The position numbers and the translations under genes are program-made. 59,449 nt of DNA from Amoebidium appalachense (Eukaryota; Protista; Ichthyosporea). The DNA lies in the NCBI GenBank assembly GCA_963693365.1, contig CAVNZM010000010.1, positions 9,381,326-9,440,774 on the forward strand, given 5' to 3'. Within the stretch, counting starts at the first letter, position 1. Each line of letters opens with the position of its first letter. Shown in pieces: positions 1-56,382 of this stretch. Under the pieces are notes generated by a model, which was given only the letters and a program-made list of their open reading frames with translations, did not search any database and was not told the DNA's origin.

Positions 1-2817
1 TTTTGATTGGTACGAGTGCCAGTGTTTAAAACGTATGATCTTCTGTGGTTCCCCAGCTAGGATTTGATCTACGTTTTTGTTGTGGTAGGTGCAAATGAGT
101 CCGTATGGTGTGCATTCCAAGTCCACTTCGAGCATCTTGTATGAATTCGCTTCGGGTTCGCTCTCAAGTGTGAGGTCAGGGGGGTAGCACTCATTATAGA
201 ACATACGTTTCAGGGGGCGTACCAAATCCTCGTGGTCTGTGATGGTGTCGGGAGTGAAGAACGCAATGTATGCATCATCCATGTATCGTGCCCCTACCGC
301 TACTATCCTGAGGAAAGTGATGTGGGTGCGTAGGCTTTTTATCAATGCATTTTCCCCGTGCGAGCATACTATGATAGCATTGGGTGCACTGGTGGGGGAA
401 CCCATAGGGATGCCGACAAATTGCTTTACGATCTGTGCTACACCTACCAGGAAGAAGGCATTTTCTAAGTCGAAGCGCACAATATCCCGGATCTGTACTA
501 GGCTTAAGCGAATGTACTGCTTGTTTGGGTGGGGGCCTACCTTGCCGTCAGCTTTTCTACCGATTGATACCGACACATATGCGTTATGAGAGAACTTTTG
601 TGCTGCTATGTCTAGTAACCACTCGATTGCAGCTAGGATGTCGCTGTGTTTTAAGTTGGTGAACATATTTTTCACGTCGACTGCTACTTGTGTGCATTTG
701 ACGGTTTCACCCGGGAACTGTTTGGAGAGGAGGTTGTTCGTCATGTGCACGAAGTCCCTAATATCATGCGTGCGGTTAATGGTGAAGGATTCGACGGAGC
801 ATGCAAGGAGTAGGGTGTTGAGAGCGCGTGCAGCAGCGCGTAGGTGGAGCTTAAGGGGGTGAGCGGTGTAGGAGACTATGGGACGGATTTTTTGGAGGTC
901 TTTGTTTTTGTGGAGGCAGTAAGAGGAGGGGAGGGATGCATTTTTCTGTATGCGAGCTACTTTCATCCATTCTTTGCGTGTGGGTTCATCGGGGCGGATG
1001 TAAGAGAAGAGGAGGTGTTGCGGTGTGAGGGAGGAGGGGAGGTAGTGATCGGGGTCGTGCAGGAAGGTGTTTGTGTATACTTCGTACGCGTGCTGGGGGC
1101 AAGCGATCACAAATTCATTGCCATTTTTATCGCATGGGCCGACTACGAGATTTTTAAGACGTGTTTTCGTGTATTGAAGGTGGGGGAGAGGGGGGAATTG
1201 GTTATCGTTGCTTAGGGATTGTGTTGTGATGCGGGTGGCAAGTGTGCGGGTTAGTTGGTAGCACGCAGGGAAGTGGGGAGGGTCACGGGAGTGTAGGATT
1301 TGGGTTGCAACGAACTCATGGCAGTCTCGTGCAAATTGGAGCAAATCTAAGCGTGCTTGTTCCGGTGTGGGCGGTGGTGTGTGTTGCGCACCGTATGCGA
1401 GGGTGTGTTGTATTTTTGGGTCGGGGAAAACTGCACCTTTGTATAGTATGTGCGGGTTGCTGTTACATGTGCATGCCGGTGGGTTGTTGGTGTCGAGGGT
1501 ACGGTGGAACTTTGTGTGTGTGTGTAGCATATCGGCAAGGGAGGGGCGAGCTGTTTCTATAATGCGGGTGCGGCGGGTGAGGAGGGCAAGGGTGCTGGGC
1601 GGGATGTTTGCATCTGTGAGGCAGGCCCGTAGCATGGCACGCAGGTCGGATTTGCTGATGCAGTGGGTGAAGGGGATTCGGAGCATATGGTGCAGAGGGT
1701 ATTGGTGTATGCGCTTATAGATCCAAGAGGTTTGTCGAAGCATGCGTGCTTGTGCTTTGGTGGGGTTGGGGAGATCGAGGAGGGTGAGGGTGACTGCACT
1801 AAGGTCGTCCAGAGGGAGTTGGAGGAGAATTCGGAAAGCAAGGCCTGGGGAGTGAGCGGCGGCTAGGCCTACGCGTGCGAGTAGAGGGAGTGTGGGTTGG
1901 GAGGAGGGGGAAGGGAGGTTGGGGGTTACGTGTAATGTGATAGTGTTAGAGTCCGGAGCTTTCTCGATTTGTACCGTGCAGTTGAGTAGCTGTAGGTGTT
2001 TTTGTAGGGCAAGGTGTGCATAGCGTTGGGAGGGTTGGAGCGTGCCTGGGGTGTATTGGAGGGATATGGAGGTAGGTTGGGGTGGGGTTGTGGTGATGTG
2101 GTGTTGAACGAAGGTGTGTAGTGAGAGGAAATGCATGCCACCGTAGGTGTATTGGGTAATGGGTGGTGGTGGTGGGGAGGGGTGTGGATGTTGTGGGCGT
2201 GGTGGGAGGGTGCGGTATCGGGGGGGTTCTCGTTTCCTTCTATGATTGGTTTCCCGTGATTGGTGTATGAGTGGGGGGTTTAGGATGCGCACGAGGGGTG
2301 GGGGTACGTGTTGCAGGTGGTTGAGAGGGGGGTGGAGTTGTTTTATGAGCAGGTGTTCTGCTTCCCGTAGATCCCATGGTTGTGCGGCGTATATAGGGAG
2401 GAAGAAGTATTTGTGTGTGCCTATACGCCAGATGTGTGCATATTTTGCCTCTGTTTTAGGGAGATGCCCTTTTCGTGCAGCAGCTATGTGTTGGTGTGCG
2501 CGGGTAAGCAGGGAGGTGGTTGAGCCGATGTAAAACTTGTTGTTTTCGAGGGAGAGTAGTGCATACACAACATTTGGGGTGGCATATGCTTGTTCTGTGC
2601 CGGCATGCGGGAAATTCCGTGCGAGTGCGTGTATGTGGCGTAGGTAGGCAGGGCATGATTCATTCAGGTATGCTAGGGCATCGTTTGCGGTACGTACGAG
2701 GGTAGGCCAATATAGGCGTTTGAAGGGGATAGGGGTATTCTGTGCAGAGCATTGCTCAAGTATGTGGAGCAGTGTGCGTGTGTGTGCTAACGCTGCTTGG
2801 CGTGCTGATGCGTCCAT
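1..2817 (-). CDS. GIY-YIG endonuclease - CxC linker - Penelope-type reverse transcriptase (3'-partial)
   Basis: Manual translation from ATG 2817 finds no stop to base 1. Motifs: VVYALLSLENNKFYIGSTTSLLTRAHQH...EAEHLLIKQLHPPLN (GIY-YIG), PPACTC (CxC, ~1465-1473), DKNGNEFVIAC, HKNKDLQKIRPIVS, DVKNMFTNL, KQFVGIPMGSPTSAP, RYMDD. Confidence 0.92.
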   Translation of the reverse strand, partial: MDASARQAALAHTRTLLHILEQCSAQNTPIPFKRLYWPTLVRTANDALAYLNESCPAYLRHIHALARNFPHAGTEQAYATPNVVYALLSLENNKFYIGSTTSLLTRAHQHIAAARKGHLPKTEAKYAHIWRIGTHKYFFLPIYAAQPWDLREAEHLLIKQLHPPLNHLQHVPPPLVRILNPPLIHQSRETNHRRKREPPRYRTLPPRPQHPHPSPPPPPITQYTYGGMHFLSLHTFVQHHITTTPPQPTSISLQYTPGTLQPSQRYAHLALQKHLQLLNCTVQIEKAPDSNTITLHVTPNLPSPSSQPTLPLLARVGLAAAHSPGLAFRILLQLPLDDLSAVTLTLLDLPNPTKAQARMLRQTSWIYKRIHQYPLHHMLRIPFTHCISKSDLRAMLRACLTDANIPPSTLALLTRRTRIIETARPSLADMLHTHTKFHRTLDTNNPPACTCNSNPHILYKGAVFPDPKIQHTLAYGAQHTPPPTPEQARLDLLQFARDCHEFVATQILHSRDPPHFPACYQLTRTLATRITTQSLSNDNQFPPLPHLQYTKTRLKNLVVGPCDKNGNEFVIACPQHAYEVYTNTFLHDPDHYLPSSLTPQHLLFSYIRPDEPTRKEWMKVARIQKNASLPSSYCLHKNKDLQKIRPIVSYTAHPLKLHLRAAARALNTLLLACSVESFTINRTHDIRDFVHMTNNLLSKQFPGETVKCTQVAVDVKNMFTNLKHSDILAAIEWLLDIAAQKFSHNAYVSVSIGRKADGKVGPHPNKQYIRLSLVQIRDIVRFDLENAFFLVGVAQIVKQFVGIPMGSPTSAPNAIIVCSHGENALIKSLRTHITFLRIVAVGARYMDDAYIAFFTPDTITDHEDLVRPLKRMFYNECYPPDLTLESEPEANSYKMLEVDLECTPYGLICTYHNKNVDQILAGEPQKIIRFKHWHSYQSK

Positions 2818-2893
2818 GGTGCACCGTCTGAGCTATGTAGGCTGTAGGGTTCGGTTTGTGTGTGTGCGTGGCTGTGTGCATGTGTGTGTGTAT

Positions 2894-2937
<44 letters not shown>

Positions 2938-3049
2938 AAACAAGAGAATTTTTGGTATGAGTGTACTCTGTTGTTTGGGAGGTAGGGTAGCCGGTACCCA
3001 CCTGTGAGTAGTTCCTAGCCAGTCCTAGCCAGCTCCAGTGCGGTCGGGC

Positions 3050-4087
3050 TCACTTGTCCAGTGCTTTAGCTATAGCCTCAATGTTGGGGCCCTGGTTCTT
3101 TCTAGTTTTCACCCCGTATGCTGCTCCAATGCTAGTCTGCCTATCCTCTCTGAGTGCCTTAGTGTATGCGGCTACGAGAAAATCTTTTCCTTTCCCTTTC
3201 CAGTAAGCTACGTCACGCTTGTTGGGGGTATCAGGTGGATTATTCAACGTCCCGACTTCACCTACGGGGGCCACCAGTGCTTGGGGTGGTGGGGACTGGT
3301 GGGGCAAGGGATGGTTTCTTCTGTGCTGGGGGTTCAGGGAGTGGGGAGGGGGAGGACGCTTCTGGGAATCAGCTGGAGGGGGGTAGGGGGAGGGGAGGAG
3401 GAGGAGGGGGGCGTAGTGGTAGGGTGGGTAGTAGTAGGGGTAGGGGGTGGGGGGTGGGGTGGTTGTAGGTGCGGTGGTGGTGGGTGCAGTGTGTGTATTT
3501 GTGGGTGTTGTGTTGGTGGTGGGTGTGGTGTTGTGCCTGGTTATGTTTCCTAGTTGTTCTTTCAGAAAGGCTATATCCTCCGATAGTTTTTCGAACTTTT
3601 CCGTGGTCTTGCTGTGTCCCAAAACTTCCACTGCACTCTCCTTTGCCGCTCCTTGGATACCTATGACTTTTTGTATACTGGCGTTGACGATAGTTTGCAG
3701 CTCCTCTTGCCGTTTCTTTTCTTCCGCTTCCTTTTTCCGTTTTTCCTCCTCTATACGCCGTTTGTTGTCTTCCTTTTCCTTTTCGAGCTGGTTAAAGGCG
3801 TTTCGGATAAAACCGAGTGGGTCGGGGGTTTGGTGTAGGTCCGTACCGGGTGGTGGGGTGGGTTGAGGTTGGAGTTGGTTGGGTTGCGGGTTAAAGATCG
3901 GTTGTTGGGGGAAAGGGGTGGGTGGTGGAGGTAGAAGGGCCGGAGGCCCTACCGGGGGTTGTGCGTGGTTGCCGTAGGTGCCGTAGGTGCCGTAGCCGTT
4001 CGGGTTGAGACCGGGAAGTGGTGGTTGGGGTACTGGTGGGCGGGGGTAGTTGTTGGGGAAGTTGGGGTTGGCGTGCCAGTGTGCCAT
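3050..4087 (-). CDS. Pro/Gln-rich coiled-coil protein, putative ORF1 of the PLE
   Basis: 345-aa ATG-initiated ORF with a charged coiled-coil block (EKEKEDNKRRIEEEKRKKEAEEKKRQEEL). It ends ~230 bp upstream of the EN-RT ATG on the same strand. Confidence 0.65.
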   Translation of the reverse strand: MAHWHANPNFPNNYPRPPVPQPPLPGLNPNGYGTYGTYGNHAQPPVGPPALLPPPPTPFPQQPIFNPQPNQLQPQPTPPPGTDLHQTPDPLGFIRNAFNQLEKEKEDNKRRIEEEKRKKEAEEKKRQEELQTIVNASIQKVIGIQGAAKESAVEVLGHSKTTEKFEKLSEDIAFLKEQLGNITRHNTTPTTNTTPTNTHTAPTTTAPTTTPPPTPYPYYYPPYHYAPLLLLPSPYPPPADSQKRPPPPHSLNPQHRRNHPLPHQSPPPQALVAPVGEVGTLNNPPDTPNKRDVAYWKGKGKDFLVAAYTKALREDRQTSIGAAYGVKTRKNQGPNIEAIAKALDK

Positions 4088-4488
4088 TCCGTGGCTCCGA
4101 AGTGTTGGTGTGCGTATATGTGTGACGTCGTGTGGTTTATATATAGGCTTAGTTCACTTGTGTGCGGTTACGTGTGGGGCGGGTTTATCTTAGGGTGTGT
4201 GGAGTACGCTAAGGTAAGTTTGGATAGTGGTATGCTCGTTTGTTGTGTGGGGTGTGTGTTTTTGTTTTGTAAGGTGGTGTGGTACAAGTATAGAGAAACG
4301 AAAACGAAGAGGGGAGGAACGAAACGGACACGAAACACGAAACATAAAACACGAAACACGAAACAACGAAACATCCCTAACGCGCCGAAGCTGCTTCAGT
4401 CCGGCATTAGGTGAAAAATGACAGGTGGTGTATTTTGTATTGTATTCACTGTATTTTCGTATACTTATGTGTGTGTCGGTGTGTGTAG

Positions 4489-4749
4489 GTGTACAAAAGC
4501 AGACCGTGTAAACCAGCTATGCTATAAGGTGCTCAGCCAACAGTAGTTACACCAAAGAGGGGTGAGGCCTGGGGAGGCCGTCACCACACCCCCCTATCTA
4601 CTGTGTGGTCTAGAATGGATCTAGTGGACTAGCGCCAAAGTCCCTGCCCCAGGCGTCCTTATAGCAAAGCGTGCTGGTGTTGCCGGTGTATGGCATGTGT
4701 GCTAACCCCCTAAGCACAGACGAGAAACTTTACGGGAACTGCTGTACAC
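4489..4749. ncRNA. candidate structured RNA (nested multi-stem fold with possible pseudoknot)
   Basis: At least 9 complementary segment pairs seen by eye, e.g. TGCTATAAGG 4520-4529/CCTTATAGCA 4657-4666, ACAGTAG 4540-4546/CTACTGT 4598-4604, GTGTACA 4489-4495/TGTACAC 4743-4749. Confidence 0.55.
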
Positions 4750-5199
4750 TGCAAAGAAGTTGTGTGTGTGTGTGGTGTGGTGAGGTCGGGATACAGTTTT
4801 TTCAATAGCGGGCTATCAGGTCAAGATCTATTCCTATTGGTCGAAAGTTAAATGTGGATATATGGGTGTATTTCTGATATCTCATTGGTGACTAACACTA
4901 TGCATTTATCCAATCCGATAATAGCAATTGTTCAACCGTGTTCATCTATGGTACGTGGGTTCATTTTACATTAGGAACTATCTAATAACGTAAAACATCA
5001 ACAAATAATAAATTATAAGAATACTATTGAATCAGAAACCGAACTAGTTTAGGGATGAATCAACATTTTACATGCAACCAAAATTCAAATTATATCTACA
5101 AGTTAAATTTTGAGATACGTACATACCCTTTCCCTAGTCATGTTTATGTCCTACTAATATGGATGTGATATGGGTAGGATATGATCTACATAATGTCAG

Positions 5200-6038
5200 T
5201 ATATGTCCACCCTAATACCACGGTATTAGCAATGTACTGCGCATACAAGGACTACACTCCGAACATGTTTGTTGAACATGTGTTGGCAATACATTCACAA
5301 TATTGCAACTACATAGGTAAAGTGACCTGTTCTTTCATCCCCAATATTGTACCAATATATTGGCAATAAAATACACGCCCCATATTTTCGGTTGCTTTTA
5401 CCTATTGATTTGAATAGGTGCATAATAGTCTTGATATTGTGACGGATACATTGGCAATACATTTGGACCGTATTGAGACCCTATTATAAGCATATCACAA
5501 CCCTATAACCAATAGCGACGTTATGTTTGTATCGGCCATATGGGACATATGTGTTGGGTATATTGCCAATAACCCAAAATGGTCAGGAATAATACATTCA
5601 TAATATATTGGCAATAGTCTTGCCACGTTGGACAATACCATAATTTGACACAAAATTATCCTACATTTTATATATTCATAACTTATTGACAATACTCCGC
5701 AAGCAATAGTATAATACCGAATAAATACATTGACAATATCGAAATTGTATTGTTAATAGGCACACGTACACGCGTTTTGAGATATTGCCAGTACATTACT
5801 CATACGGTATATAGTTATTGGTGGTAGACCCGGCATGGTATGACAATAATATCAAAATATGTTGCCGATATTACGTCAATATTACAGTTCTATTACACTT
5901 CTATAGCGTCTCTACCACAGAAAATCTCTACTCGCAATACATTGGCAATGGATAATTGATATTACTTCAGTATTAATCTGGTATTTTTACGATATTGGCA
6001 ATAGATAATAGCCTCACAATATTGGCAATACCGCCGGG
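5200..6038. repeat. AT-rich tract with many degenerate ATATTG/GGCAATA motifs in both orientations (possible DNA transposon/MITE remnant)
   Basis: Recurrent TATTGGCAATA-like words; imperfect inverted ends CCCGGC..GGTAT at 5829 and ATACCGCCGGG ending 6038. Confidence 0.35.
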
Positions 6039-6051
6039 AAGTTTGCTGATG

Positions 6052-11271
<5,220 letters not shown>

Positions 11272-12261
11272 CACCCGCGTTTCGTCATCAGAGACCTAAA
11301 GAATGGTTCCGTCACAAAGACCTCAGATGCCATTGCGAGCTACTTCATCTGGCCATCGTATTTGCAAAGGTTGCTTATGCTAGCAAGAACTGTAGGTGGA
11401 TGTTTGGACTGAAGGAGGGGCCTTGGCATACAGATGCCAACGGGAATTCCTCCCTATAAGCCATCTGTGTGCTTTTCCTATCTCCAGCATATGACGTAAG
11501 GTCGAGAACGTCCTGGACATCAATAGCCGTGCTTGAATGTCTCCAAGTAAGTGAAGGTCAAAGCCATGCCTAATGTGATTGTACTCTTCCACGGGTATGG
11601 TTAACACGTGACTGAAAGGACAGCGAAAAGAAGTGGCACATCATGCAGGTGCTGTGGGGGTGCAAGTCGTAAACATACACAAAACGCATTTATTCTCACA
11701 TAAGGATTTACTGTACTGGCAAGACTTTCTCTGTCACAGTGGCAGTGTGCAAGGAGTTCACTGGTTTAAAGCAACCTACGTTCCAGCTGTATTGACAATG
11801 TGCACCCTTGTACATTTTGACAGCTAGCCATGCAAACCAGCCCAAACAAAATCCTCCTCTAGGTCATCTTGCAGAAGGCCACCTGTGCCATCGGAAAGGA
11901 AAACAGCACCAGCATGCATGAAAAAAAAAAAAAAATGCTAGCCATCCAATCCTGCAGCCCAAACGAGCCAATAGAAAGAAGCTGGTCAGGCAGTGAAACG
12001 TTATTAGAGGCGAGGTATCTAGCTGTGAAACAATCTGACAGGTACGTCGGAACTGCGAGCACGTGCACAAGGTACCCACAACCAGTCACAGCGTGTCTCT
12101 GACAAGAGCCCCGAGCACCGAAAGGGCACAGTAACCAACAGGGACTTGAGCACAACCAACATCTCGATCACTGTATGGGTAGACACCATCACCAGGCCCT
12201 GCCAGTCCACCTCAACACCCCCCATGCATCCCTATTCACCACGCTACCTATTGCTCAACCG

Positions 12262-13073
12262 CTAGACATCCTTCGGCACGACGTCGTCAACAAGTTGCTG
12301 GTTGATCCCTGCAGCTCGGCAAGCGCATTCAAAGCTGATGCGTTGCTCTTCAGTGTGAAACACGCCGTCGGGATCGGGAATTGCTAAAACTTCAAGGAAC
12401 TGGTGATGGTGCATGGACGAAAACGCCATAAGGTTCTTGAAAGCGCTGATGACAATCTTGCGTCTCTCTTCGGTAGGGATAGCTTTGGCAACCTCGCCCA
12501 GAAATTCCCGACTACGGGCGAAGTCGGTTAGTGCCTCGGTTGTTGTAATTTTTTTTGCGCTGCAGATTCTCCCTGGGTTGTCCGCATTCTCGCCCTCTGT
12601 TCATCAGCAATGACCTCGAGCACAAAACGCACCGAGAGCTTCTGTTCTTGCAACTTGGAGTTTCTCAGCTGGTTCTCGAGGGTGTTGACTCTGTCCTTCG
12701 CAGCCCCAACTTCATCCTTCGCAGCCACAACTTCATCCTTCGCAGCCACAACTTCATCCTTCGCAGCCACTGTAATAGCCACAACTTCAGCCTTCGCAGC
12801 CACAACTTCAGCCTTCGCAGCCACTGTAATAGCCACAACTTCAGCCTTCGCAGCCAACGCCTGGCTAAGAGCTGCGTCCTTCCCAGCCAACGCCTGGCTA
12901 ACAGCTGCGTCCTTCTCGAAATACAACCGCCGCCAGAACTCAACTGATGAAGGATCAAAGGTAGTCAGGGTACTAAGGGCACGTGTGCGCCATGAGGCCA
13001 CACTCACACTACTGATCGTGCATGCGGCGTGGCGCAAAAGAATGCGCGGTCGCATAAGCAAGGAGACAGCCAT
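12262..13073 (-). pseudogene. heptad-repeat coiled-coil protein of unknown family (frameshift in T-run ~12550)
   Basis: KDAAVSQALA and AAKDEVV repeats; C-terminus reconstructed from the second copy (58211-59081). Confidence 0.6.
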
Positions 13074-13344
13074 ACTTCCAAAGATGTAGTTAGTGCTTTG
13101 AAACGACTACCGTCGATCAGTTACACACTACTGTGCAATGGGCGGGTCAACGTTAGCACTAAATGTGGCTGCGTCATCGGATTCGAGGCAATCCGATCTT
13201 ATTACCAATAAAAGCCGATGCGATCGCGGTTGTCAAATCAAGAAGTCCCAATCCCGTAATTTTGGACTGCTCCCCCTAGTTGAACAGTTTGGGGGGACTG
13301 GTGTAAGGGTTTTTCGGGTTGGGCCGAAAGCCCTATTGGGCCGC

Positions 13345-13590
13345 CAGGCCCGGGGGCCCCGGGGACCGGGGGCCCCCCCACCCAGGGAGGCCCGGGGGCC
13401 CCGGGGACCGGGGGGCCCCCCACCCACGGAGGCCCGGGGGGCCACGGGGGCCCAGCGTTAGTTTACCGGGGGGCCACGGGGGCCCGGCGTTAGTTTACCA
13501 GGGGGCCACGGGGGCCTGGCGTTAGTTTACCGGGGGGGCCACGGGGGCCCGGCGTTCAAGTTAGTTTACTACTAACGCCGGGCCCCCGTG
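13345..13590. repeat. GC-rich tandem repeats (~35-bp x2 and ~32-bp x4) ending in an inverted unit
   Basis: GGGGGCCACGGGGGCCCGGCGTTAGTTTACC units followed by ACTAACGCCGGGCCCCCGTG. Confidence 0.9.
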
Positions 13591-14368
13591 CTTTTGACGG
13601 CAGGCACCAGCCTGGCCACCACCTCTGCGTCCATGCCACTCACTAACCCTACCATTTTCACCAGTAGGAAGGGGTACCCCACAAAGTTCTTCCTTGCCTC
13701 GTCCTTGTACCGGCGGTGCCACGACAAGGAAAACTTAAACATGCCCGTCAGCAACTCCAACTGCTCGCACGTGAACCTAGGGAGGGGATGCCCGTACACT
13801 GTCTGTTCATGATATAAGGTACGTGCACGTAGTGCCGTGTGAGCTTGTTCTGCCTCAACACCCTCCTTGCCTGGTCTGCACTCTCTCTGTGTTGCACGCC
13901 CCTGAATGCTGCCACCACCCCCTCCTGCATGTCCCCCATAGACGCATTCAGCCCTTGCACCGACTGCAGCAGCTGCTTGAAGTGGTTAATGTGCCTGTAC
14001 GGCTGAGACCTCTTTCTGTCCCAGAAGGCCGTGCATCCCTCGTACGTCTTCCTCCCCTCACCGTCACTCCCCTCCCACCCCCTCCCGTCGTACACCCAGT
14101 CCTCCTCCTCCTCCTCCCCCTCCCCCCTCCCTCCCCCCTCCTCGTACACGTACTCCTGGTCCCCTCCGTCGTGCTCGTATTCGTCGTGTTCCCCCGTGCA
14201 CGTCTCCCTCTCCTTGCAGGATGCCCACCAACATGCACACGGTGGCTGTGGTTTTGGTTGTGTGGTGGTGGTGTTGCAGTACATGTCATAGAGGAAGGGG
14301 CACAAGTCTAGCAGCTTCTCAGGGTCTGTGGTGTCGGCCACCATACTTAGCAGTGTGTCCTCGTCCAT
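13572..14368 (-). pseudogene. VLTF3-like (poxvirus A2-type) viral late transcription factor, frameshifted near 13800
   Basis: PYRHINHFKQLLQSVQG ... VLRQNKLTRHYVHVPYIMNR / YGHPLPRF...LTGMF...RKNFVGYPFLLVKM...VPAVKS match the recalled VLTF3 pattern Y-x-R-x-NHF...QG...L-x-x-YYEH-x-PYI...RKNFLSY-x-YVL-x-K...PLLKS. Confidence 0.8.
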
Positions 14369-14375
14369 TTTAATT

Positions 14376-14383
14376 TCAATTTT
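14376..14383 (-). promoter_or_regulatory. AAAATTGA motif (Mimivirus early-promoter consensus) just upstream of the VLTF3-like ATG
   Basis: Minus strand reads AAAAAATTGAAATTAAAATG, an AT island in GC-rich DNA. Confidence 0.5.
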
Positions 14384-14831
14384 TTACGTGTGTGTGTGTG
14401 TGTGTGTGTGTGTGGTCTACGGGTGTTGCAAAAAGTGAAGTGTTTGTGTACATGTGTGTGCGCCTTTTATATGTTTTGGTGCCTGCTCTTTCTGGCAAGC
14501 CTCCCACCCTTGTATGCATGTACGGTGGTGGTGTTGGTGTTGTTTCTACCTGTGCCTGCATGTGGTGGTCTGCTGAACGACACGTTTGTGTTTGTGTTTG
14601 CATTAAGTCCTGATTTTAATGGCTGTTGCCCCTCGTGCACACGGTGCACATGGTGTATACCTAAAAACACACTCTTTTTCTTTAAGTTCTTCTTCTGACC
14701 CCCCTGCCCGTGCACATGGTACCCCATTTTTCTATCTTTCAAAGCTAAGTTAACAGACACGTCATATAATTTTCAAATTTACTCTAATGTAACTTCAGGT
14801 GCTTAGACTACGTATGGTCCGCATGCTCTAA

Positions 14832-15215
14832 CTAACCCCCTCCCCTAATCAAAACTGCAGCCACAGTGCCCTCCGGTGCAGCCCACCCAATGGGATAGCT
14901 GCGTACAATACCGTCTGCCGCCTCAAACACCCCCCTCTTGTCGAAGGCACCCGACTGTGTCTTGCGCTGGTCCTTGCTGGCCAGGTGGTAGTTGTGGGGG
15001 ACCCCGGGCACGGGTTCACGGAGCAGCCGGTGGTTGGTGACGCTCACACTCGGCAGCTCGCCGTGCACCAGCCTACAGAGGTTGGGCATGTTGACGGTGT
15101 CGGCTGCACGGCGGGAGAGGGTGATGCCCTTGACCTTGACGTCGGTCTTGCCGTCCGGGGTGCGGTAGGCATACGTCTTGGGGGCCACCCCCACGAACTC
15201 GACGATGGGGGTGGT
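14832..15215 (-). pseudogene. protein-primed family B DNA polymerase, C-terminal fragment
   Basis: PIVEFVGVAPKTYAY (KxY motif), KVKGITL, FDKR; rejoins the 35294-37810 part when the Gypsy element and one GTGGT copy are removed. Confidence 0.9.
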
Positions 15216-19176: not shown

Positions 19177-19526
19177 GTGAAAAGGAATATATAGCTGTAA
19201 GGCTGTGGATGCTAAACACAGAAGATGTGTTTGTAGCTTGCTGATCTGCTAAAAACTGTCGTGCTTATATACCTAAGCCTACCGATCTGAACCAATCAAA
19301 AATCGATCTAGTGATATGTGAAATCTGATCCGAGCCAATCATAACTCGGTCTAGTGATCTGTGGTATCTGATGTTTTGACTGGCTAATAGGTGCCCGTGT
19401 GCGGGCAGCCAACCGCTAACTGCTAAAACACGAAATGAAGCCTACATGGTTATGTTGGTATCGAACACCCATCCTACGTGTTTACCCAGAAAAATATTTA
19501 TGTCAATAATTTCCACAAATAAAACC
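19177..19526. repeat. split direct repeat A2 (350 bp)
   Basis: Matches 30822-31171. Confidence 0.93.
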
Positions 19527-19616
19527 TCTATGAAAAACTACTCCGGGACGTGTGTTGCCTCTAGGGGGACATCCCCTTGGACGAAAGTGAACCTGCAATG
19601 GTTGTAAACCACGGCA
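19527..19616. repeat. split direct repeat B1 (90 bp)
   Basis: Matches 18958-19047; abuts A2. Confidence 0.93.
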
Positions 19617-19644
19617 CGAGAGCAGTATGCTTGCTCCAAAGGTT

Positions 19645-20676
19645 TCACTTAAGAATAGAGGCGAATACACGTGTGGTGGTGGCAGCAATGGAGGCCGGAC
19701 GAAGTCGGGTATAGATCAGGAAGCAGTCGGAGGACCACCGGCCGAGTTGTTTGATCCGGGAGTCGTCGACCCCGGCCTCAGCCAGTGCTGTGGCCCCCCC
19801 GATGCGGAGGCTGTGTCCGGCAAACCGGGAGGGTGAGAGGCCTGCCCGGGAGAGGAGGGCACGGAAATCGGCAGAGAAAGCACTCTTGGTGTAGGGGATG
19901 CCACCGAGACTGAAGAGGGGGTCGTCGGGTTGACCGGACGTTGTATCCAGGAACTGCCGGAGGAGATGGGCTGGGGAGAAGTGGGTGAGGGGCAGGGCAG
20001 CTAGGGTGACGTTGACACCTCGGGCCTGTACATCCGTCTTAGAGGTTGGCAGGTGGAGGGTGGCATGGGACAAAGTACCGGTGGGGGTGTAGCTGAAGGT
20101 CACGTCCTTCCGTTTAACGTGACGGGACGGGTCGAAAGAAGTCAGGGTCTTGGAGGTAAATTCCCCTGAACGGAGGAGACCACAGAAACCGACGATGAGG
20201 GCCGTCCATAGCCGGAGATTGGCCGAGGAGGCCTTGGTGGGGCACTGGCCGTGGAGTAGTTGGAGGTGGGAGGGGAGGAGGGGTTCCCTGGTGGATGAGC
20301 GGGGTCGGATGTTGTGAGAAAGCTGCCATCGGCCTACCCCCCGTAGGAACCAGGCCAGAGACTTGTCGTGGGGGTAGGGAGCAGGGAGGCCCATGTCGAG
20401 GTGGAGCCTGGTGATGGCCGAATTGTAGCCGGTTAAGGAAGAGGCCTGTACCCCTCGTTGGGCACACCAGGCGAGAAAAAGTTGCACGGTGTGTGGGGAG
20501 GCCGGGAGGGAGGACCCGGAGGAGGATTGCAGCCGAGATGCCACACAGAAATCGATGAACACTTTTTGCACCCGGGAGTAAAAGGCCCGAGAGTCGAGGT
20601 TGAGACTCAGGGCCTGGCATTCCTGCAGGGTAGTGGTGGCTCGAAGCAGCTCGGCCGGAGCAAAGTGGGGGGCCAA
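19645..20676 (-). CDS. tyrosine recombinase
   Basis: LLRSGEF, SKTD, GHSLRIGGAT, LGRWSSDCFLIY: R-K-HxxR-W-Y catalytic set. True start uncertain (homopolymer upstream). Confidence 0.95.
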   Translation of the reverse strand: MAPHFAPAELLRATTTLQECQALSLNLDSRAFYSRVQKVFIDFCVASRLQSSSGSSLPASPHTVQLFLAWCAQRGVQASSLTGYNSAITRLHLDMGLPAPYPHDKSLAWFLRGVGRWQLSHNIRPRSSTREPLLPSHLQLLHGQCPTKASSANLRLWTALIVGFCGLLRSGEFTSKTLTSFDPSRHVKRKDVTFSYTPTGTLSHATLHLPTSKTDVQARGVNVTLAALPLTHFSPAHLLRQFLDTTSGQPDDPLFSLGGIPYTKSAFSADFRALLSRAGLSPSRFAGHSLRIGGATALAEAGVDDSRIKQLGRWSSDCFLIYTRLRPASIAATTTRVFASILK

Positions 20677-20707
20677 TCTGCCAGTGTTGCTCCGGAACGG
20701 GAGATCT

Positions 20708-20735
<28 letters not shown>

Positions 20736-20738
<3 letters not shown>

Positions 20739-22330
20739 GCCCAAGGGAAGGGATAGGAACTCGTGGACCCAGGAGGGGAAGGGGCAGGGCTCCGGTTGCA
20801 GGGAAGGTCGGAGTCGTCGGGCCCGGGGAAGTTGGTTACGAGAAATGGCATCGGCCAGATGGTTGAGGGGTCCTGGTAGGTAGGATGCCTGTAACGTAAA
20901 TTGGTATTGCATTTCCATGCGGGTGATGAACCGAATAAGTTTGGCCATCACGGGGTGGGGGGAAGACCGGGAGTGCAGGTCAGACACAGCACCCGTGTTG
21001 TCGCATAAAATACGGACATGGTGGGTGGACCAGGAGGGGGCCCAGAGGGCCACGGCGGCTGCGATGGCCAGGAGTTCGATGACGGAAGAACCGAGTTTAC
21101 CCTCATGAGCATAGAGGGCTTGGGTGGAGGGGGACCAGGGCATGAAGAACCATTGGTCGAGCCAGTGGCCACCTAGACCCACCGATCCGGCAGCATCAGT
21201 GGCCAGGGTGGTGTATGTGGGGGGTGTGATGAGGTGCACCCCATTCCATGATGTGAGGAACTGGTGCCATTCGGCTATGTCGGCCCGGGCGGCAGCAGTC
21301 AGTCGTATGTGGTGGTGGCCGGCAAGGTGTGGGTGGGTCCGGAGAAGGGCCCATAGGCGCTGGGAGAAGGCCCTCCCGGGGGGAACCAGCTGGGCACACC
21401 AGGTGAGTTTGCCGAGGAGGGACTGGAGGTCCCGAATGGTGATGGTGGGCTTTGGGTGGGAAGTGAGGTCGAGTAGGTCCGAGAGCTTGGAAGCCGGGAT
21501 TCGTGCCTCCATGGCGATGGAGTCGAATTCGATACCGATGAAGACGACACGGGTAGCCGGGCCCTGCATCTTGTCTTCGGAGATGGCAATGTGCAGCTCT
21601 CGGCAGAGTTGCAGAAAGGTGGATAGGTGACGTTGGCACTGCTGTTGTGTGGGGGCGACTATAATCCAGTCGTCTACGTAGTGGCGGATGAGGGTAATAC
21701 CGTGCTGGTGTGCCAGCCACTGTTGGGTGGCCGCGATCCGTTCCCAGATGGCTGGGCTAGATTTCAGGCCGAAGGGCAGTCTGGTTTCAACGTAAAAATG
21801 CCCTTGCCATTTGAATGCCATTAAGTGGTGGTCTTCCGGTTGGATGGGCATGTGCCGGAAGGCAGCCAGCACATCTGCCACGGCCATGTAGCAGCCGGGG
21901 CCTGCGTCGAGAATGAGTTGGGTGACATCCCGGGCGCGAATGTACTGAAGTTCGTCGGGGTAGGTGATGCTGTCATTGACACTGCTACCCCGGGGCCAGG
22001 AGAGGTGGTGGATTCGACGGTACTTGGGGGGGTTCCCTTTCTTGGTAACGGCGCCGATGGGGGAGGAACGGTGGACGGGAAATTCGTCAAAGAATTGGGC
22101 CGGGGAGAGGGGGCCGCGCAGGTGGCCGAGGGCGACTTCTTTGGCAATATCCACCGTGATAGCGGCAGCTGCCTCCGGGGTGGTGGGTAGGTTGGGGCCC
22201 ACCCGAGAGGTGGAGGGGCCGCGATAGCCGATGTCGACGCCGAATTCGACATCGTGGAGGAGTTGTGCGGCGAATGGTTGGTCCGGGTAGGAGGCCAGCA
22301 GTTCCCGGAGGCGGGAGGTGTCAATGTGGT
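20736..22330 (-). CDS. DIRS/Ngaro-type reverse transcriptase - RNase H
   Basis: RRIHHLSWP..SVND, ADVLAAFRH, LPFGLKSSP, HYVDDW, TDAAGSVGLGG, ELLAI, CDNTG, NHLADAISR. The frame stays open upstream of 22202; start uncertain. Confidence 0.93.
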
Positions 22331-22420
22331 GCTGGGGCAGCGGGGCGGGCCTCCGGGTCTGAGCCTCGGGGGAAGGGGGTGGTTAGCAAGGGTGGTGTAC
22401 CCTTGGGGAGATCCCGGCAG

Positions 22421-22463
<43 letters not shown>

Positions 22464-22870
22464 CAGGGCCCCGGGGGGTTAGAGTAGGGCAGCTTGGCCC
22501 AAGTGAGGGTTGGCAGGGAGGGCAGCGGGGCCCTGTGCAGGGGAATGTGCCCGAGCACGCGGGGCTGTGGGCGGACACAGCGGTAGAAGAAAGGGGGGGG
22601 GGAGGGAGTGCTAGGTGAGTGTAAGGGGGGGAGGCTCGTGGGATGGGGGGGGGGGGGGGAGTAAAATTATGTGCAGTGGCCAGAATAAACGTCTTTGTAT
22701 AGGGACATTTATTCTTGACGCGCGCGGGCGCCGTAGTTGGCCTGCGAAATTTTGTACTCAGCCCTATTGGCCCGTTCTCCCGAGCTCCGTTTCCCTGTAC
22801 TCGTGTGTCCTAGCTCCGAACCCCTATGTTCTAGCTGTGTGTGTGGGTGTGCGCGTAGACTAGGCATTGT

Positions 22871-23796
22871 TGTTGTAATACGTAGTATTTACATATGGTA
22901 AGATCTTCTCAGTTTGTGTTATGTTTCAGTTCATATGCTTAGTGTAAATGCCACACTCCTATTATGTAAAGTGTAGCATCGATCTCCGATATGCTTGTAT
23001 ACTTGTAATCGTGTTGTATCGGCTTTAATCGTGTATTGTAATATCGATTAGAATATTTATATGTGTGTACACGGATCCACCCACTCAGGGAGAGACGTGT
23101 ACATGTTCGTGTGTACATAAATATCTCTGGTTATAGTTATGCTATTACTATCTTGTTTGTTGATCTGTGCTCTCTTTTCCTTCCTCTTTCTCCTTCCTTA
23201 TTTTCTTTTCTTTCTCTCCTTGTCTTCATGTGTATAATCGTATTTCTTTTCTACTAATATATGTTAGGTAGATTTGTGTTACTTAATACGTGTTCATTGG
23301 ACGGTAACACACTTAGGCTACACTTAGAATAGCATGTGTGTTTAGACTTCATTAATTCACTTTAGTTTTCATGTGTTGCCGGGCTTTAACCAATCATCAA
23401 GGTTAAGTGTGATATGTCTGAGTCTTTGCAGTATGTCATAGGTTAGAACTTCCTTGATGATGACACGAGTTGATCTTAACTGGTGTCTGTGTCCTATCGT
23501 GTACGCCTCCGCGTACCGGATCTCTCTCAAAGCAATTGGTTCTTAGTGATTGGTTTCTATTAGAGATGGATCTGATTTCCGACTGGTCGGAAATCATGTA
23601 TGGATTGGACTTAGAGGAATTTCAGGTATTTATTCGAAGATCAGAATAAATTCAGTTCAGTCGTGTCTAAACATTGATGTCTGTTGTGTACACTGCTCCG
23701 ATCGTTCCGTGTTTTGTTGTTGTGTGTGTCTGTGGTGTTTTCACACTGCACCACTGTGTCTCTGCTTACATCCTAAATACTTATAGAAATTTAACA
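22871..23796 (+). repeat. Copia-1 5' LTR
   Basis: TGTTG...TAACA; one substitution seen versus the 3' LTR (near 23528). Confidence 0.95.
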
Positions 23797-23858
23797 GGTT
23801 ATGCAGCCCTTTTGCACGCTCCCTACACACATCTAGAACTCGCGCTCGTTTTTCAATC

Positions 23859-26800
23859 ATGGATCCAAACAAAACTGGCGTAAACAAAATCACCATGTGG
23901 AAAGGTGAAGGGAAGACTGGTCCCGATAGCAAAACTACCTATTTTCAATGGGAAATCATTTTTCTCGGCATGATGACCGGCACTAAAGGTGTCCGACTCG
24001 TGGATGTTGTCCTTGCTGACAACTACGTCCCCCCTACCACCGTCGCGGTTGACGGTGAACCCCCCTTCTATGGCTACGGCACTACCGCGGAACTCAAAGA
24101 GGCCCGCAATTGCCTCCTGCTCCATATGATACAGAACATCGACCCTTCCGTCCTCACCACCGTTGCCCAGTACCGTATTGGCATGGACCCTGAACGGGCC
24201 ATGTGGAAATTCCGTCAACACTATCTCCAAGGCAAACCCGATCAGATCCGCATCCTTCACCGTCAGTGGGATGCCTGTGCCCTTCAGCCCGGTGAATCAT
24301 TCACCACCTACCTGAGCCGTCTGCAGACCATCGTGAACCAGCTCCAGTCTCTCCAAGATGAGTCCATTCACTTCACTCGTCTAGCTGAGAAGTTCTTCAA
24401 TGAACTCACCACCAGAGACGACCTCACCCCTGAGTTCAATCGTCTTATCGAAGACTATCACTTCGGTGATAAGCTATTCCCCGACTTCGAGTCCCTCCAT
24501 AACCACGTCAAGGGCATCGAGTTACGTCAAGACCTCAAGATGCAACTCCGGAACAACCGTGCCCACCGTGCCTCCAAGTCCAGCATGGCATTAAATGCCA
24601 GTGCTCCCCCCCGTGATCTTCCTCGCCGTGACTTACGCACCCGACTTGACCGTACCTCTGGCACGGACCTCCGAACTCGTCTCTCCCGTCAGCACACCCG
24701 ATCCCGTTCCCCCCACCGGCCTGCCTTCCGGTCCACGTCTCGTTCCCCCAGTCGTTCCCGTTTCTCGGGTTCCCGTCGTTCTGATTCCCCCGGCTCGTTC
24801 TAACACCCCGTCCGTGAAAGAATGCTCCTACTGCCACGAGCCTGATCACACGATCATCGATTGCCCTGAGCCGAAATGCCGTATGTCCAGACACAACCGT
24901 TCCCGTCAAGGCAGTGAGAAATCTGTCTCCTTTGCTTTCTCGGCATACAATGCTAGCTCCGTCCCCGTGTCCTCCGACCCTGCCTGGGATTCCGGGTGCA
25001 ACATGACTGTTTGCCCCACCCGTGAGTTCTTCCATGACCTCACTCCCCTTCCGACACCGACTCCCGTTGCTGCCTTCAATGGCACCCCCGTCTTGGCCAC
25101 TCACACCGGCCATATCGTCATCAACACCACCACCGACCATGGCACTACCACCCTAACCATTGAAGCCTACTACACCCCGTCTGGCCAAGCCTTCCTCATT
25201 TCAACATCCCAAGCTGCTGCCGAATACATCAAGGGTGATTTGAACGATGCCTCCACTCCGTCATTCCTCTTCGACCGACTCACCGGCCGTCATCTCGTCA
25301 ACCTCCGTCTACACAACGGTCTGTATTACTTCAAGGACTACACCATTCAACCACCCACTCGTCCTGTGGCTCTGGCTGCCACTACCAGTGTTAACCCATC
25401 CATCTGGCACCATCGTCTGGGGCACCGAGCTATGACCAGCATCAAGGACATGGTGAAACACGACCTTGTTATTGGTCTCCCCTCCTCTGTCCTCGACTGT
25501 GATGTTCCTGATTGTCATGGCTGCATTATGGGTAAGACCACCAAGGCTCCGTTCAGGGGTGACCGTCCTCACTCCAACATCCCCGGTCATGAATGGCATT
25601 GGGATTTTTTTGAGCCTACCACAACATCGTACGGAGGTTCCAAGGTTGCTCTCGTCACTGTCTGCCGTGCCTCTGGCCTCGTCAAGATCTACCCGATGGC
25701 CGACCGTACCACCACCCTGGATATTCTCACAGCTCACACCAACCTCGTTGCCACCCATGCCCCCTCCAAAGTTGGTGTTTACCACTTCGACTCCGGCTCT
25801 GAGTTCACCTCCAAGGATACCCGTGCTTTTTGCCTCTCCCAGGGCATCAAGGCCAGCTATGCTCCGGTGGACTGCCCTCAACTGAACGGCTATGTTGAAC
25901 GACGTATGCGGTTCCTCCAAGAGATTGTCCGTTGCCTCCTCCATCAAGTCCAAGATCAGTCTCTGTCTCCCAAACTGTGGGCTGAGGCCCTCCAACATGC
26001 CGCCTACATCATCAACGTCACCCCGTCCACGACTGCCAATGGTCGTACACCATTCGAGGTTTTCTACGGTGTCAAGCCCGACATCTCCGAGCTCAAAGTG
26101 TTCGGTTGCCCTGCCTACACTCACGTGCCAGCCTCTAAACGGAACAAGCTGGCCCCCACCGTCAAACTCGGCATGTATATCGGCTATGATCTTCAATCAC
26201 ACTGCCACCGGATCTTCAATGCCACCACCCATCGTGTCGGCCTCTTCCGTGATGTGATTTTCGACGAATCAGCTTATCTCCCGTCCGACATTCCATCAAC
26301 CCTTCCGACCCCCGACACCACTGCTACCTCGACCACCCCACCCCCCACAGTTGACACTGAAGATGATGTTTGTCTGGTGTACTCTGGCCCCCCTCCTGCC
26401 ATCGTCGTTCCCCCGACACCCCCCCCCCCACCGGCCCCCCTGCCCCCGTGCCCGTCCAGCCTGCCGACCCTCATCCTGGCCCTGGCAACGTCACACCCAT
26501 CCGACCCGGCTCCCCCGACAACTTCCACTCGGCCCCGTCCAGCCCGGAGGTTGCCCCCCCTGCACTTCCGAACTTCCAAGTTCCCCCCCCCACCGTCTCC
26601 ACCTACCCCGGTTCCTGCACCCCGTCGTTCTGCCCGTCTCCAGGGCAAGGTTGGACTTCAAGCCACCACCACCCTGCCAGTCCCCCCCGGTCCCCCCATC
26701 AACATCGACCAACTACCCAAACTTGTCCGTCAACTCTGTTCCGGACCCAATGGTGATCAGGTCAAGTCAGCCCTGACTGCTGAGTATCAAGCCTTCGTCG

Positions 26801-28270: not shown

Positions 28271-28692
28271 CCCGACCTACTTCAAGAGTGATTTTCTCAT
28301 GTGTACTACTTACTTTATCAACATCATTATATCATATGTATTGCCTTTGTGGGTATGCCCACTTAGGGTTTATATATAAGGTTTGACCTGTACCATCACT
28401 CTACTCTATCTTTCACTGGTTTAAAACCCAGTTAATCAAACACCGCCTATACACGTTATATATATTCGTTGTTTTTGCCCCGGTTCCTTCCCCCCTCCCC
28501 CCCCCTTCCCCCCCCCTTCCCCCCCCCCCTTCCCCCCCCCCCCCCTCCCCCCCCCCTCCCCCCCTCTCCCCCCCCCCCCCCCGGGAAAAGTACACACTTT
28601 AATTTTTTTTTTCCGTTTCTGTTCTCAAGTGGGGAGATTTCACTAGTTCAGTGGGGATATGATAACACAAACTTCAAAGTCTTAAGTGGGGA

Positions 28693-30782: not shown

Positions 30783-30821
30783 GCTGACCGGCGTAGGGAA
30801 AGATAGGGAGAATGAAAAGGA

Positions 30822-31171
30822 GTGAAAAGGAATATATAGCTGTAAGGCTGTGGATGCTAAACACAGAAGATGTGTTTGTAGCTTGCTGATCTGCTAAAAA
30901 CTGTCGTGCTTATATACCTAAGCCTACCGATCTGAACCAATCAAAAATCGATCTAGTGATATGTGAAATCTGATCCGAGCCAATCATAACTCGGTCTAGT
31001 GATCTGTGGTATCTGATGTTTTGACTGGCTAATAGGTGCCCGTGTGCGGGCAGCCAACCGCTAACTGCTAAAACACGAAATGAAGCCTACATGGTTATGT
31101 TGGTATCGAACACCCATCCTACGTGTTTACCCAGAAAAATATTTATGTCAATAATTTCCACAAATAAAACC
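30822..31171. repeat. split direct repeat A1
   Basis: Matches 19177-19526. Confidence 0.93.
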
Positions 31172-37810: not shown

Positions 37811-37902
37811 TGTTGGAATACGTCGCCATGTATGACAGCAAGAGCCTTGAAGTATGTATGTGTCCTAGCTTGTTTGTATTCGTGTCTGCTTTCCTCCTTT
37901 GT

Positions 37903-37960
<58 letters not shown>

Positions 37961-38705: not shown

Positions 38706-38823
38706 GGTTAAAGGCCCATTTTCGCACGCTCTCGCAACACATACTCTCGCTGCAATCAAAAATATTCAAATTTGAATACCGATCTGATTCCTCTCTCACG
38801 CATCATCTGACTGATTGATCACC

Positions 38824-45022: not shown

Positions 45023-45086
<64 letters not shown>

Positions 45087-51061: not shown

Positions 51062-56382
<5,321 letters not shown>

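What the first reader, a model, noticed from the sequence alone, without database searches (positions are those of the whole stretch)
4489..4749. ~260-nt densely base-paired candidate RNA with possible pseudoknot at the PLE 5' end
Seen pairings: GTGTACA..GCAG (4489-4502)/CTGCTGTACAC (4739-4749) as closing stem; ACCAGC 4512-4517/GCTGGT 4673-4678; TGCTATAAGG/CCTTATAGCA; ACAGTAG/CTACTGT; hairpin GGTGAGGCCT-GGGG-AGGCCGTCACC (4561-4585); GGACT/AGTCC (4626-4643); TGCCG/TGGCA (4681-4695, G-U on + strand); TGTGCT/AGCACA (4698-4718). GCCTGGGG 4567-4574 can alternatively pair with CCCCAGGC 4647-4654 (pseudoknot or switch). The last loop reads CTAACCCCCTAA, reminiscent of a telomerase template. Known: canonical PLEs carry hammerhead ribozymes, N-terminal-EN PLEs lack canonical ones, and PLE RTs are sister to TERT. 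Inference: an undescribed ribozyme or RT-partner RNA. The strand and the template idea are speculative.
Basis: partly seen in the sequence, partly recalled or inferred. Interest (0 to 1): 0.78.

Follow-up and report, generated by a model that had tools for sequence, protein, structure and literature searches.

The report
Folded terminal-repeat RNA of Penelope retrotransposon
This 260-base stretch is predicted to fold into a branched shape and likely belongs to the repeated end-piece of a Penelope-type jumping gene, where it would serve as a signal recognised by the element's own proteins at the spot where relatives carry a self-cutting RNA; it matches no known ribozyme, and the telomerase-template idea is not supported.

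Summary
The named pairings are in the sequence. Folding beats shuffles only modestly as RNA (z -2.4 plus, -2.05 minus; -0.7 and -1.0 with 20-base flanks) and more strongly as DNA (z -4.3 plus). The neighbour is a two-ORF Penelope-like element with an N-terminal GIY-YIG and Chlamys-type motifs, on the minus strand. Contigs from public runs show the RNA lies in a module (about 4419-5137) that is deeper than the element body, about 6-fold in the two deepest runs. It has one sharp end beside ORF1 and a ragged far end, which fits a pseudo-LTR, the copy of the 3' UTR. A paralog family shows two compensatory pair changes, read by eye; one stem does not clearly hold. The 8-bp 'pseudoknot' excludes the hairpin it overlaps, so it is an alternative fold. 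No hammerhead, HDV-like, twister, pistol, hatchet or Rfam match was found. The 'template' is partly paired, varies in one contig, and is G-rich on the element's sense strand. The strand is unresolved and no homolog outside the host's runs was found. Best reading: a cis-acting pseudo-LTR RNA domain; catalysis untested. In passing, related elements carry a different, strongly covarying double-kissing RNA at that position.

The parts
4489..4749 (.). Branched structured domain: closing stems 4489-4508/4731-4749, long arm 4512-4678, small hairpins 4681-4695 and 4698-4718; functional strand unresolved
4559..4592 (.). Most conserved core: hairpin 4561-4585 with a 4-nt G/C loop; shared by a contig that is otherwise unlike the module
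   Evidence: X4 record 29 (529 nt) fits only 4559-4592 with 1 other letter; records in X1, X4 and X11 begin at 4559 or end at 4588/4592
4537..4624 (.). Pairs 4539-4606 and 4610-4624 that change on both sides in a paralog family (A-U to U-A; C-G to U-A), read by eye from loose ends
   Evidence: tables 3, 7, 8; pair probabilities
4567..4654 (.). Alternative 8-bp helix 4567-4574/4647-4654, exclusive with the 4566-4579 hairpin
   Evidence: P 0.01 as RNA; -93.6 vs -95.5 kcal/mol; P 0.87 as plus-strand single-stranded DNA
4702..4713 (+). Template-like word; 9 nt lie in a hairpin loop, the ends are paired; not supported as a telomerase template
   Evidence: variant at 4710
4419..5137 (-). Likely pseudo-LTR (copy of the element's 3' UTR): sharp end at 4417-4424, ragged far end, non-coding
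   Evidence: depth, loose ends; no long ORF
4761..4774 (-). (CA)n tract beside the folded domain, inside the module
   Evidence: bridged by contigs
3050..4087 (-). ORF1, 345 aa, proline-rich with a charged segment; no family or homolog found
1..2817 (-). ORF2, more than 939 aa, cut by the window start: N-terminal GIY-YIG without cysteines, CxC (449), DK (563), RT motifs to YMDD (845)
   Evidence: (GIY-YIG E 8.4e-06; RVT_1 E 0.0093, below cut-off)

Best explanation
The stretch is a predicted branched fold inside what is likely the pseudo-LTR (a duplicated 3' UTR) of a two-ORF Chlamys-type Penelope-like retrotransposon, and it would act in cis on the element's own minus-strand transcript as a binding and end-defining signal for the element's proteins rather than as a separate RNA. 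Steps: (1) shown: the element has ORF1 and a GIY-YIG/CxC/RT ORF on the minus strand, and the module is joined to the ORF1 side in several runs. (2) Inferred: the module is the element's 3' end, because it is deeper than the body, has one sharp end with differing flanks and thins out on the far side, as 5'-truncated copies would. (3) Inferred: the domain sits about 70-330 nt from that 3' end, where hammerheads lie in Chlamys-2 and -5 of Chara. (4) Inferred and untested: the ORF2 (or ORF1) protein binds the fold, probably at the conserved 4559-4592 hairpin, which selects the element's RNA and places the start of reverse transcription in the C/A-rich tail next to it.
For: Summed contig depth beside ORF1 against single module contigs: X1 463.5 vs 2597-2809, X3 110.5 vs 599-621, X4 39.4 vs 53.5-66.9. 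Total depth at 4785, 4810, 4853 and 4996: X1 2696, 2119, 1210, 475; X3 686, 465, 390, 191. Loose ends at 4421/4424 appear in 4 of 4 runs, with three different flanks listed. Two both-side pair changes in a paralog family fall on predicted pairs (4539-4606, P 0.83 plus and 0.74 minus; 4610-4624, P 0.34 and 0.72). Related elements carry structured RNA at the same position: a canonical hammerhead in the L031 3' UTR and hammerhead-like cores in L041, L042 and L044, and a covarying kissing motif in 23 of 57 loci. In L033 that motif overlaps an upstream direct repeat of the 3' end. Hammerheads lie at 4985 of 5314 and 5635 of 5848 in Chlamys-2 and -5_cBra (PMC8557442 supplement). A PLE initiates reverse transcription in an AC-rich stem-loop (PMC11167929 passages).
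Against: The element's own 3' end is outside the window and no genome is held, so the pseudo-LTR identity was not shown directly. The tool warns that contig depth is not copy number and that tables were cut. The RNA z-score drops to about -1 with flanks. Of 19 listed substitutions inside the domain, 7 hit named helices: 4 keep a pair on plus only, 1 on minus only, 2 break both; 12 of 19 unpaired is about what chance gives. The 10-bp stem is not clearly kept in paralogs: the two visible strands, from different runs, leave two A-A mismatches (by eye). The DNA-parameter z-score favours plus. In the anole PLE the full pLTR was not needed for insertion and the proposed binding motif lay in the ORF (PMC11167929). 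No run on record as RNA holds the stretch.
Confidence: 0.4

Rival explanations
1. The fold is a self-cleaving ribozyme of an undescribed class that replaces the hammerhead and cuts tandem transcripts to unit length.
For: Its position matches that of PLE hammerheads. Chlamys elements mostly lack canonical hammerheads (PMC8557442). It has a conserved core hairpin with a possible 4-bp loop contact and a purine-rich junction strand at 4719-4728.
Against: No CUGANGA on either strand of 4300-5200 and 0 hits for a rough HDV-like descriptor or for pistol, hatchet and hairpin words; one loose twister word lies outside the domain. Rfam gave one chance-level hit in each of two scans at E up to 10. At 260 nt it is far larger than the 50-80 nt expected for small ribozymes (PMC10085705).
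Confidence: 0.15
2. The module is a separate non-autonomous element, or an inverted piece read on the plus strand with a fixed RNA start near 4419 and ragged run-off ends, that became fixed beside this PLE family.
For: It is deeper than the body. 4 of 7 stem substitutions keep a G-U pair on plus only. The 4800-5137 part is AT-rich, unlike the ORFs. Non-autonomous pLTR derivatives are described (bioRxiv 10.64898/2026.07.22.740005 passages).
Against: The junction is carried at the full depth of the body in X1, X3, X4 and X11. No tRNA or B-box. No inverted repeat with the body. A stem at 4554-60/4589-95 forms only on minus (P about 0.4 vs 0.0), and the 4591 variant turns one of its G-U pairs into A-U.
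Confidence: 0.17
3. The fold acts in the first-strand cDNA (plus strand, single-stranded DNA), for example to pause the RT or prime the second strand.
For: z -4.34 as plus-strand DNA (0 of 200). Pairs are nearly all Watson-Crick (6 G-U of 83). The 8-bp alternative helix dominates only in plus-strand DNA (P 0.87).
Against: The inner hairpin of that DNA fold uses 4603-4608, which the paralog family changes. cDNA is normally paired with its template (general knowledge). DNA parameters penalise G-T in shuffles and so raise z for any perfect stems.
Confidence: 0.1
4. The pairings are largely incidental in a GC-richer patch of a 3' UTR and have no selected function.
For: RNA z is about -2.2 at hand-picked ends and near -1 or weaker with flanks. 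Stem counts are matched by 33 to 142 of 1000 shuffles and by many other windows. Two common or strain-level variants break the longest stem.
Against: Two both-side changes, a replaced but still paired side hairpin, and a 34-nt core kept in an otherwise unlike contig.
Confidence: 0.16
5. The domain is a telomerase-RNA-like partner whose last loop templates telomeric repeats for the PLE RT.
For: The word CTAACCCCCTAA has a 4-nt terminal repeat, like a 1.5-repeat template (template anatomy: PMC4993307 passages). PLE RTs are sister to TERT (PMC8557442).
Against: The template ends are paired in a 6-bp hairpin. One X4 contig changes 4710. No TTAGGGGG or tandem TTAGGG occurs in the window. The element has an endonuclease and lies among internal repeats. 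The sense strand reads G-rich there.
Confidence: 0.02

Closest known systems
Chlamys clade of N-terminal EN+ Penelope-like elements, especially the two-ORF types Chlamys-2/-5_cBra and Chlamys-1_bBra (Craig et al. 2021, PMC8557442)
   Same: N-terminal GIY-YIG without cysteines, CxC, DK, RT; an upstream ORF (345 aa here, 362 aa without domains in Chlamys-1_bBra); partial tandem with a likely pLTR; CA- and C-rich tracts.
   Different: No zinc knuckle was found in ORF1 and no hammerhead in the likely pLTR. None of the exact nucleotide or peptide words searched occurs in the paper's supplement (line breaks could hide a word). The best relatives found are 24-38% identical.
Hammerhead ribozymes in PLE pLTRs (PMC6765202 passages; Craig supplement File S2; non-circular permutations in PMC10085705)
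   Same: Same likely position near the 3' end and upstream of the next ORF.
   Different: No CUGANGA on either strand; about three times larger; multi-branched; cleavage untested.
Protein-binding UTR structures of non-LTR retrotransposons such as R2 (PMC6765202 figure legend passage; details recalled)
   Same: A structured UTR proposed to be recognised in cis by the element's protein.
   Different: Different RT clade and endonuclease; no Rfam match; binding untested here.
Telomerase RNA (PMC4993307 passages)
   Same: A word resembling 1.5 repeats; RT clade sister to TERT.
   Different: The word sits in a hairpin with paired ends, after rather than before the candidate pseudoknot (order recalled), is multi-copy inside a transposon repeat, and varies.

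Membership tests
Chlamys PLE | GIY-YIG endonuclease N-terminal to RT in one ORF | tested here: met
   Pfam GIY-YIG at 83-122 (E 8.4e-06, above cut-off), RVT_1 at 638-869 (E 0.0093, below cut-off); profile hits to RT and GIY-YIG structures
Chlamys PLE | CxC motif between EN and RT, and DK motif | tested here: met
   CTC at 449 and CDK at 562; D and N of the DKN stretch invariant in A1
Chlamys PLE | EN lacks the CCHH and CX2-5CxxC zinc fingers of Naiads | tested here: met
   0 cysteines in residues 81-175
Chlamys PLE | Insertion-in-fingers domain between RT motifs A and B | tested here: inconclusive
   About 88 residues from motif A (714) to motif B (802); not aligned with canonical PLEs
Chlamys PLE | Placement in the Chlamys clade with named references | not tested
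   The quick tree (45 rows, 13 of 57 loci left out for short or absent matches) held no named references and placed the window in no supported set
Chlamys PLE | Partial tandem forming a pLTR | tested here: inconclusive
   Depth step, sharp end and gradient fit; the 3' copy is outside the window
Hammerhead ribozyme (any permutation) | CUGANGA core between stems I and II | tested here: not met
   0 on either strand of 4300-5200; Rfam none
HDV-like ribozyme | Nested double pseudoknot with P3/L3 and a catalytic C in J4/2 | tested here: not met
   0 hits with a home-made descriptor from recalled consensus, which could miss divergent forms; Rfam none
Twister, twister-sister, pistol, hatchet, hairpin ribozymes; group I intron; RNase P/MRP; SRP | Covariance-model match or core words | tested here: not met
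   (only mir-2024 E 7.1 and a lentiviral frameshift element E 9)
Self-cleaving ribozyme (any class) | Site-specific self-cleavage | not testable with these tools
   Needs an in vitro assay
Telomerase RNA | Accessible single-stranded template of 1.5-2 repeats | tested here: not met
   Ends paired, 9-nt loop; variant at 4710
Telomerase RNA | Template matches the host telomere repeat | not testable with these tools
   Host and telomeres not available; no such repeat in the window
Double-kissing motif of related elements (found here) | Match to model R1 or its core words | tested here: not met
   Best hit in window 1-12000 is 6.6 bits, E 9.8, elsewhere; core words absent from the domain

The most novel reading that the evidence does not exclude
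Hammerhead-less Chlamys/Naiad-side PLEs fill the hammerhead's slot in the pseudo-LTR with other structured RNAs, and this 260-nt fold is one of at least two undescribed classes (the other being the covarying double-kissing motif in related metagenomic elements), one or both of which are new self-cleaving ribozymes or RT-docking domains.
Probability: 0.25. Interest if true: 0.8.

Novelty: new variant of a known kind. Interest (0 to 1): 0.5.

Why it matters
How PLEs pick and process their RNA is open, and N-terminal-endonuclease PLEs thrive without the hammerhead that other PLEs carry (PMC8557442). A defined RNA domain in the hammerhead's position gives a direct substrate for cleavage, SHAPE and RT-binding tests in the RT clade closest to telomerase. 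For this window's RNA the comparative support is thin. The kissing motif found in relatives has much stronger covariation and is the better first test.

Tried and rejected
No whole genome is held. No second copy of the module in the window. DNA pattern scans found 0 matches in viral contigs, 0 in metagenome contigs and 0 in genome contigs with the exact core. A relaxed pattern gave 2 matches in genome contigs (L058, L059) with no likeness beyond the pattern, rejected as chance. Plasmids: no match. blastn and nhmmer of the module against 57 RT-related loci: nothing significant. The protein-based scan of viral contigs found 25 candidates, none confirmed. Word-index protein searches found no relative of ORF2 or ORF1. 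A search with a neighbouring copia protein gave only 23-38% identity hits, so the host was not identified; a slime-mould host was my guess from the poly-C and CA tracts and was not confirmed. No RNA holder listed; X11 is only guessed to be RNA. tRNA/SINE head: ARAGORN 0, no B-box. SECIS: no pattern in the domain and no in-frame TGA in the 939 codons seen. A resemblance of 4674-4697 to a Hydra hammerhead stem II was noticed by eye and rejected because the core is absent. One helix (P2) was mis-indexed and another; they were recomputed. Literature: six full-text searches listed no paper describing this RNA or the kissing motif; only listings were seen for most, and subscription papers are not covered. 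Four words were absent from the one supplement file held for PMC10085705.

Full report
Observation. ViennaRNA folds 4489-4749 into a closed, branched structure on either strand: -95.5 kcal/mol, z -2.40, 4 of 200 shuffles as good on plus; -96.4, z -2.05, 6 of 200 on minus. The signal depends on the ends. With about 20 more bases each side z is -0.74 and -1.03, while the inner arm 4512-4678 alone gives -2.44 and -2.81 (60 shuffles each). With DNA parameters z is -4.34 on plus (0 of 200) and -2.83 on minus (2 of 200). Counts of perfect stems are only mildly high: 6-bp stems are matched by 142 of 1000 shuffles, 7-bp by 41, 8-bp by 93, 10-bp by 33. The fold is more than average, but energy alone does not prove selection.

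Pseudoknot and template. The 8-bp helix 4567-74/4647-54 uses bases of the 4566-4579 hairpin, so the two exclude each other. As RNA it has probability 0.01 on both strands and costs 1.9 kcal/mol when forced. As plus-strand single-stranded DNA it dominates (0.87). Only a 4-bp contact of the hairpin loop could form a true pseudoknot, and nothing here tests that. The template-like word 4702-4713 has its first two bases paired (unpaired probability 0.00 and 0.05) and its last mostly paired (0.12). One contig of run X4 changes 4710. The window has no TTAGGGGG and no tandem TTAGGG. On the element's sense strand the loop is G-rich. I reject the template idea, with the caveat that the host's telomere repeat is unknown.

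The neighbouring element. On the minus strand lie a 345-aa ORF1 (4087-3050) and an ORF of more than 939 aa (2817 to the window start). ORF2 has an N-terminal GIY-YIG (Pfam E 8.4e-06) and a weak RVT_1 match (E 0.0093, below cut-off), no cysteine in the endonuclease, CxC at 449, DK at 563 and YMDD at 845. A full scan found 748 relatives at E up to 0.001, the 150 listed at 24-38% identity. These features fit the Chlamys description in PMC8557442 (passages, section 9 and supplement parts seen), where two-ORF families are known from Chara and Botryococcus. A tree with named references was not built, and the host was not identified.

Where the RNA sits. The window cuts off the element's 3' end and no genome is held, so I used contigs of public runs: 5 of the 24 listed were laid. 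Depth beside ORF1 is 463.5 in X1, 110.5 in X3 and 39.4 in X4. Single contigs over the module have 2597-2809, 599-621 and 53.5-66.9. One contig in each of X1, X3, X4 and X11 bridges the ORF1-side junction at the body's depth; X13 had no cover there. Other contigs leave the window at 4421-4424 into three different listed flanks, in 4 of 4 runs. On the far side total depth falls stepwise (X1 2696, 2119, 1210, 475; X3 686, 465, 390, 191 at 4785, 4810, 4853, 4996) until a far deeper repeat starts at 5138. One sharp end and one ragged end is what 5'-truncated copies give, so 4419-5137 is likely the pseudo-LTR, a copy of the 3' UTR. The fold then lies about 70-330 nt from the 3' end, the place of the hammerheads in Chlamys-2 and -5_cBra. 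The tool warns that depth is not copy number, and its tables were cut. A fixed-start, ragged-end reading on the plus strand is not excluded.

Comparative evidence. Of 23 substitutions listed, 19 lie in the domain and 7 in the helices I named. Four keep a pair only on plus (4610, 4621, 4694, 4695), one only on minus (4613), and two break both (4664, 4666); 12 of 19 unpaired is near chance. Against plus, a stem at 4554-60/4589-95 forms only on minus (about 0.4 vs 0.0), and variant 4591 turns one of its G-U pairs into A-U. The strand is therefore open; I prefer minus only because it is the element's sense. A diverged paralog family, read by eye from loose ends, changes both sides of 4539-4606 (same contig, X1 record 5) and of 4610-4624 (different contigs), and replaces the 4610-4624 hairpin with a longer one. 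The hairpin 4559-4592 is kept in a contig that is otherwise unlike the module. Against this, the visible strands of the 10-bp stem in paralogs come from different runs and leave two A-A mismatches. No full paralog sequence could be fetched, so no covariation statistic exists for this RNA. No homolog was found in viral, metagenome, prokaryote or plasmid collections.

Known RNA classes. Rfam gives no hit at gathering score in the whole window and only one chance hit in each of two local scans at E up to 10. CUGANGA is absent from both strands of 4300-5200; the non-circular hammerhead permutations keep the conserved core too (PMC10085705 passages). A rough HDV-like descriptor and recalled words for other ribozymes found nothing in the domain.

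What relatives carry. A metagenome scan with an RT alignment gave 57 loci; none resembles the module in sequence. L031 has a canonical hammerhead in its 3' UTR, and L041, L042 and L044 have hammerhead-like cores. Many others have a different sense-strand motif of about 95 nt between the RT stop and the next upstream ORF: two hairpins whose loops pair through two crossing helices. On 15 aligned sequences, 96.1% of cells pair, 11 of 17 pairs change on both sides, the covariation score is 0.587 against 0.194 in shuffles (0 of 500), and slid controls pair 35-44% (the shuffles ignore relatedness, and I derived the structure from these sequences). A model of it hits 23 of 57 loci at E up to 1, among them L010, L018 and, weakly, L033, which were not in the training set. 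It has no Rfam match and does not match the window. The slot is thus filled by different structured RNAs in different lineages, which raises the prior that the window's fold is functional but does not show homology.

Mechanism. I commit to a cis-acting pseudo-LTR domain that the element's proteins would bind to select the RNA and set the start of reverse transcription in the adjacent C/A-rich tail (0.4). The anole PLE starts in an AC-rich stem-loop, but there the full pLTR was dispensable and the binding motif was placed in the ORF (PMC11167929 passages), which weighs against. Rivals: separate or plus-strand module 0.17, incidental pairing 0.16, new ribozyme 0.15, cDNA structure 0.10, telomerase-like template 0.02.

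Novelty and verdict. The element is a new member of a described clade, and the RNA domain is an undescribed variant occupant of a known position. Six literature searches listed nothing describing it. I also read passages of PMC6765202, PMC4993307, bioRxiv 10.64898/2026.07.22.740005 (its supplements were not seen) and PMC13159263 (no bearing). Interest 0.5: the window's RNA alone would merit about 0.4, and the covarying motif in relatives makes the question of what replaces the hammerhead directly testable.

Noticed in passing
L012:2458-2554 and 22 further loci (L001, L002, L006, L009-L011, L014, L015, L017-L021, L024, L026, L029, L030, L032, L033, L035, L047, L048): A sense-strand RNA motif of about 95 nt between the RT stop and the next upstream ORF of related N-terminal-EN-type PLEs: two hairpins joined by two crossing loop-loop helices, invariant GUGAG and GAAGAAGC words, and an AAUAAA-like word between the helices. 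Strong covariation, no Rfam match. A candidate new ribozyme or 3'-end signal, better supported than the window's RNA.
   Followed up: partly
L002, L006, L009, L012, L014, L017, L019, L024, L029, L030, L035, L047; L032: Contigs of 4.0-4.4 kb, 33-38% GC, with near-exact terminal direct repeats of about 110-190 nt (assembler circles or tandem arrays); L032 is a near-perfect 2x tandem. Could be pure tandem arrays or circular DNA forms of two-ORF PLEs; host unknown.
   Followed up: no
L031:4980-5060; L041:2000-2090, L042, L044: A canonical type I hammerhead in the L031 3' UTR, and hammerhead-like cores in repeated ends of L041, L042 and L044, so hammerheads occur in more N-terminal-EN-type relatives than the Chara and spike-moss cases.
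   Followed up: partly
window 5138-6000: An AT-rich repeat with many internal inverted words, summed depth about 90,000 in X1 against 463 for the PLE body, folding z about -2.4 at 5071-5461. The module's far end abuts it.
   Followed up: no
window 2818-3049: The ORF1-ORF2 spacer holds a 38-nt C run (2897-2934, minus strand) and a CA tract, with GT and AG words that could mark an intron.
   Followed up: no
window 6102-11271 / 51155-56382 and 11895-14911 / 56383-59449: Large direct (94-98%) and inverted (96%) duplications within the window.
   Followed up: no
window 15215-35293, 19177-31171, 22871-29618, 37809-45833, 35170-37864: Nested young retroelements with near-identical terminal repeats (778, 350, 926 and 905 nt): gypsy-type, DIRS-like RT and copia-type ORFs, plus family-B DNA polymerase fragments.
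   Followed up: no
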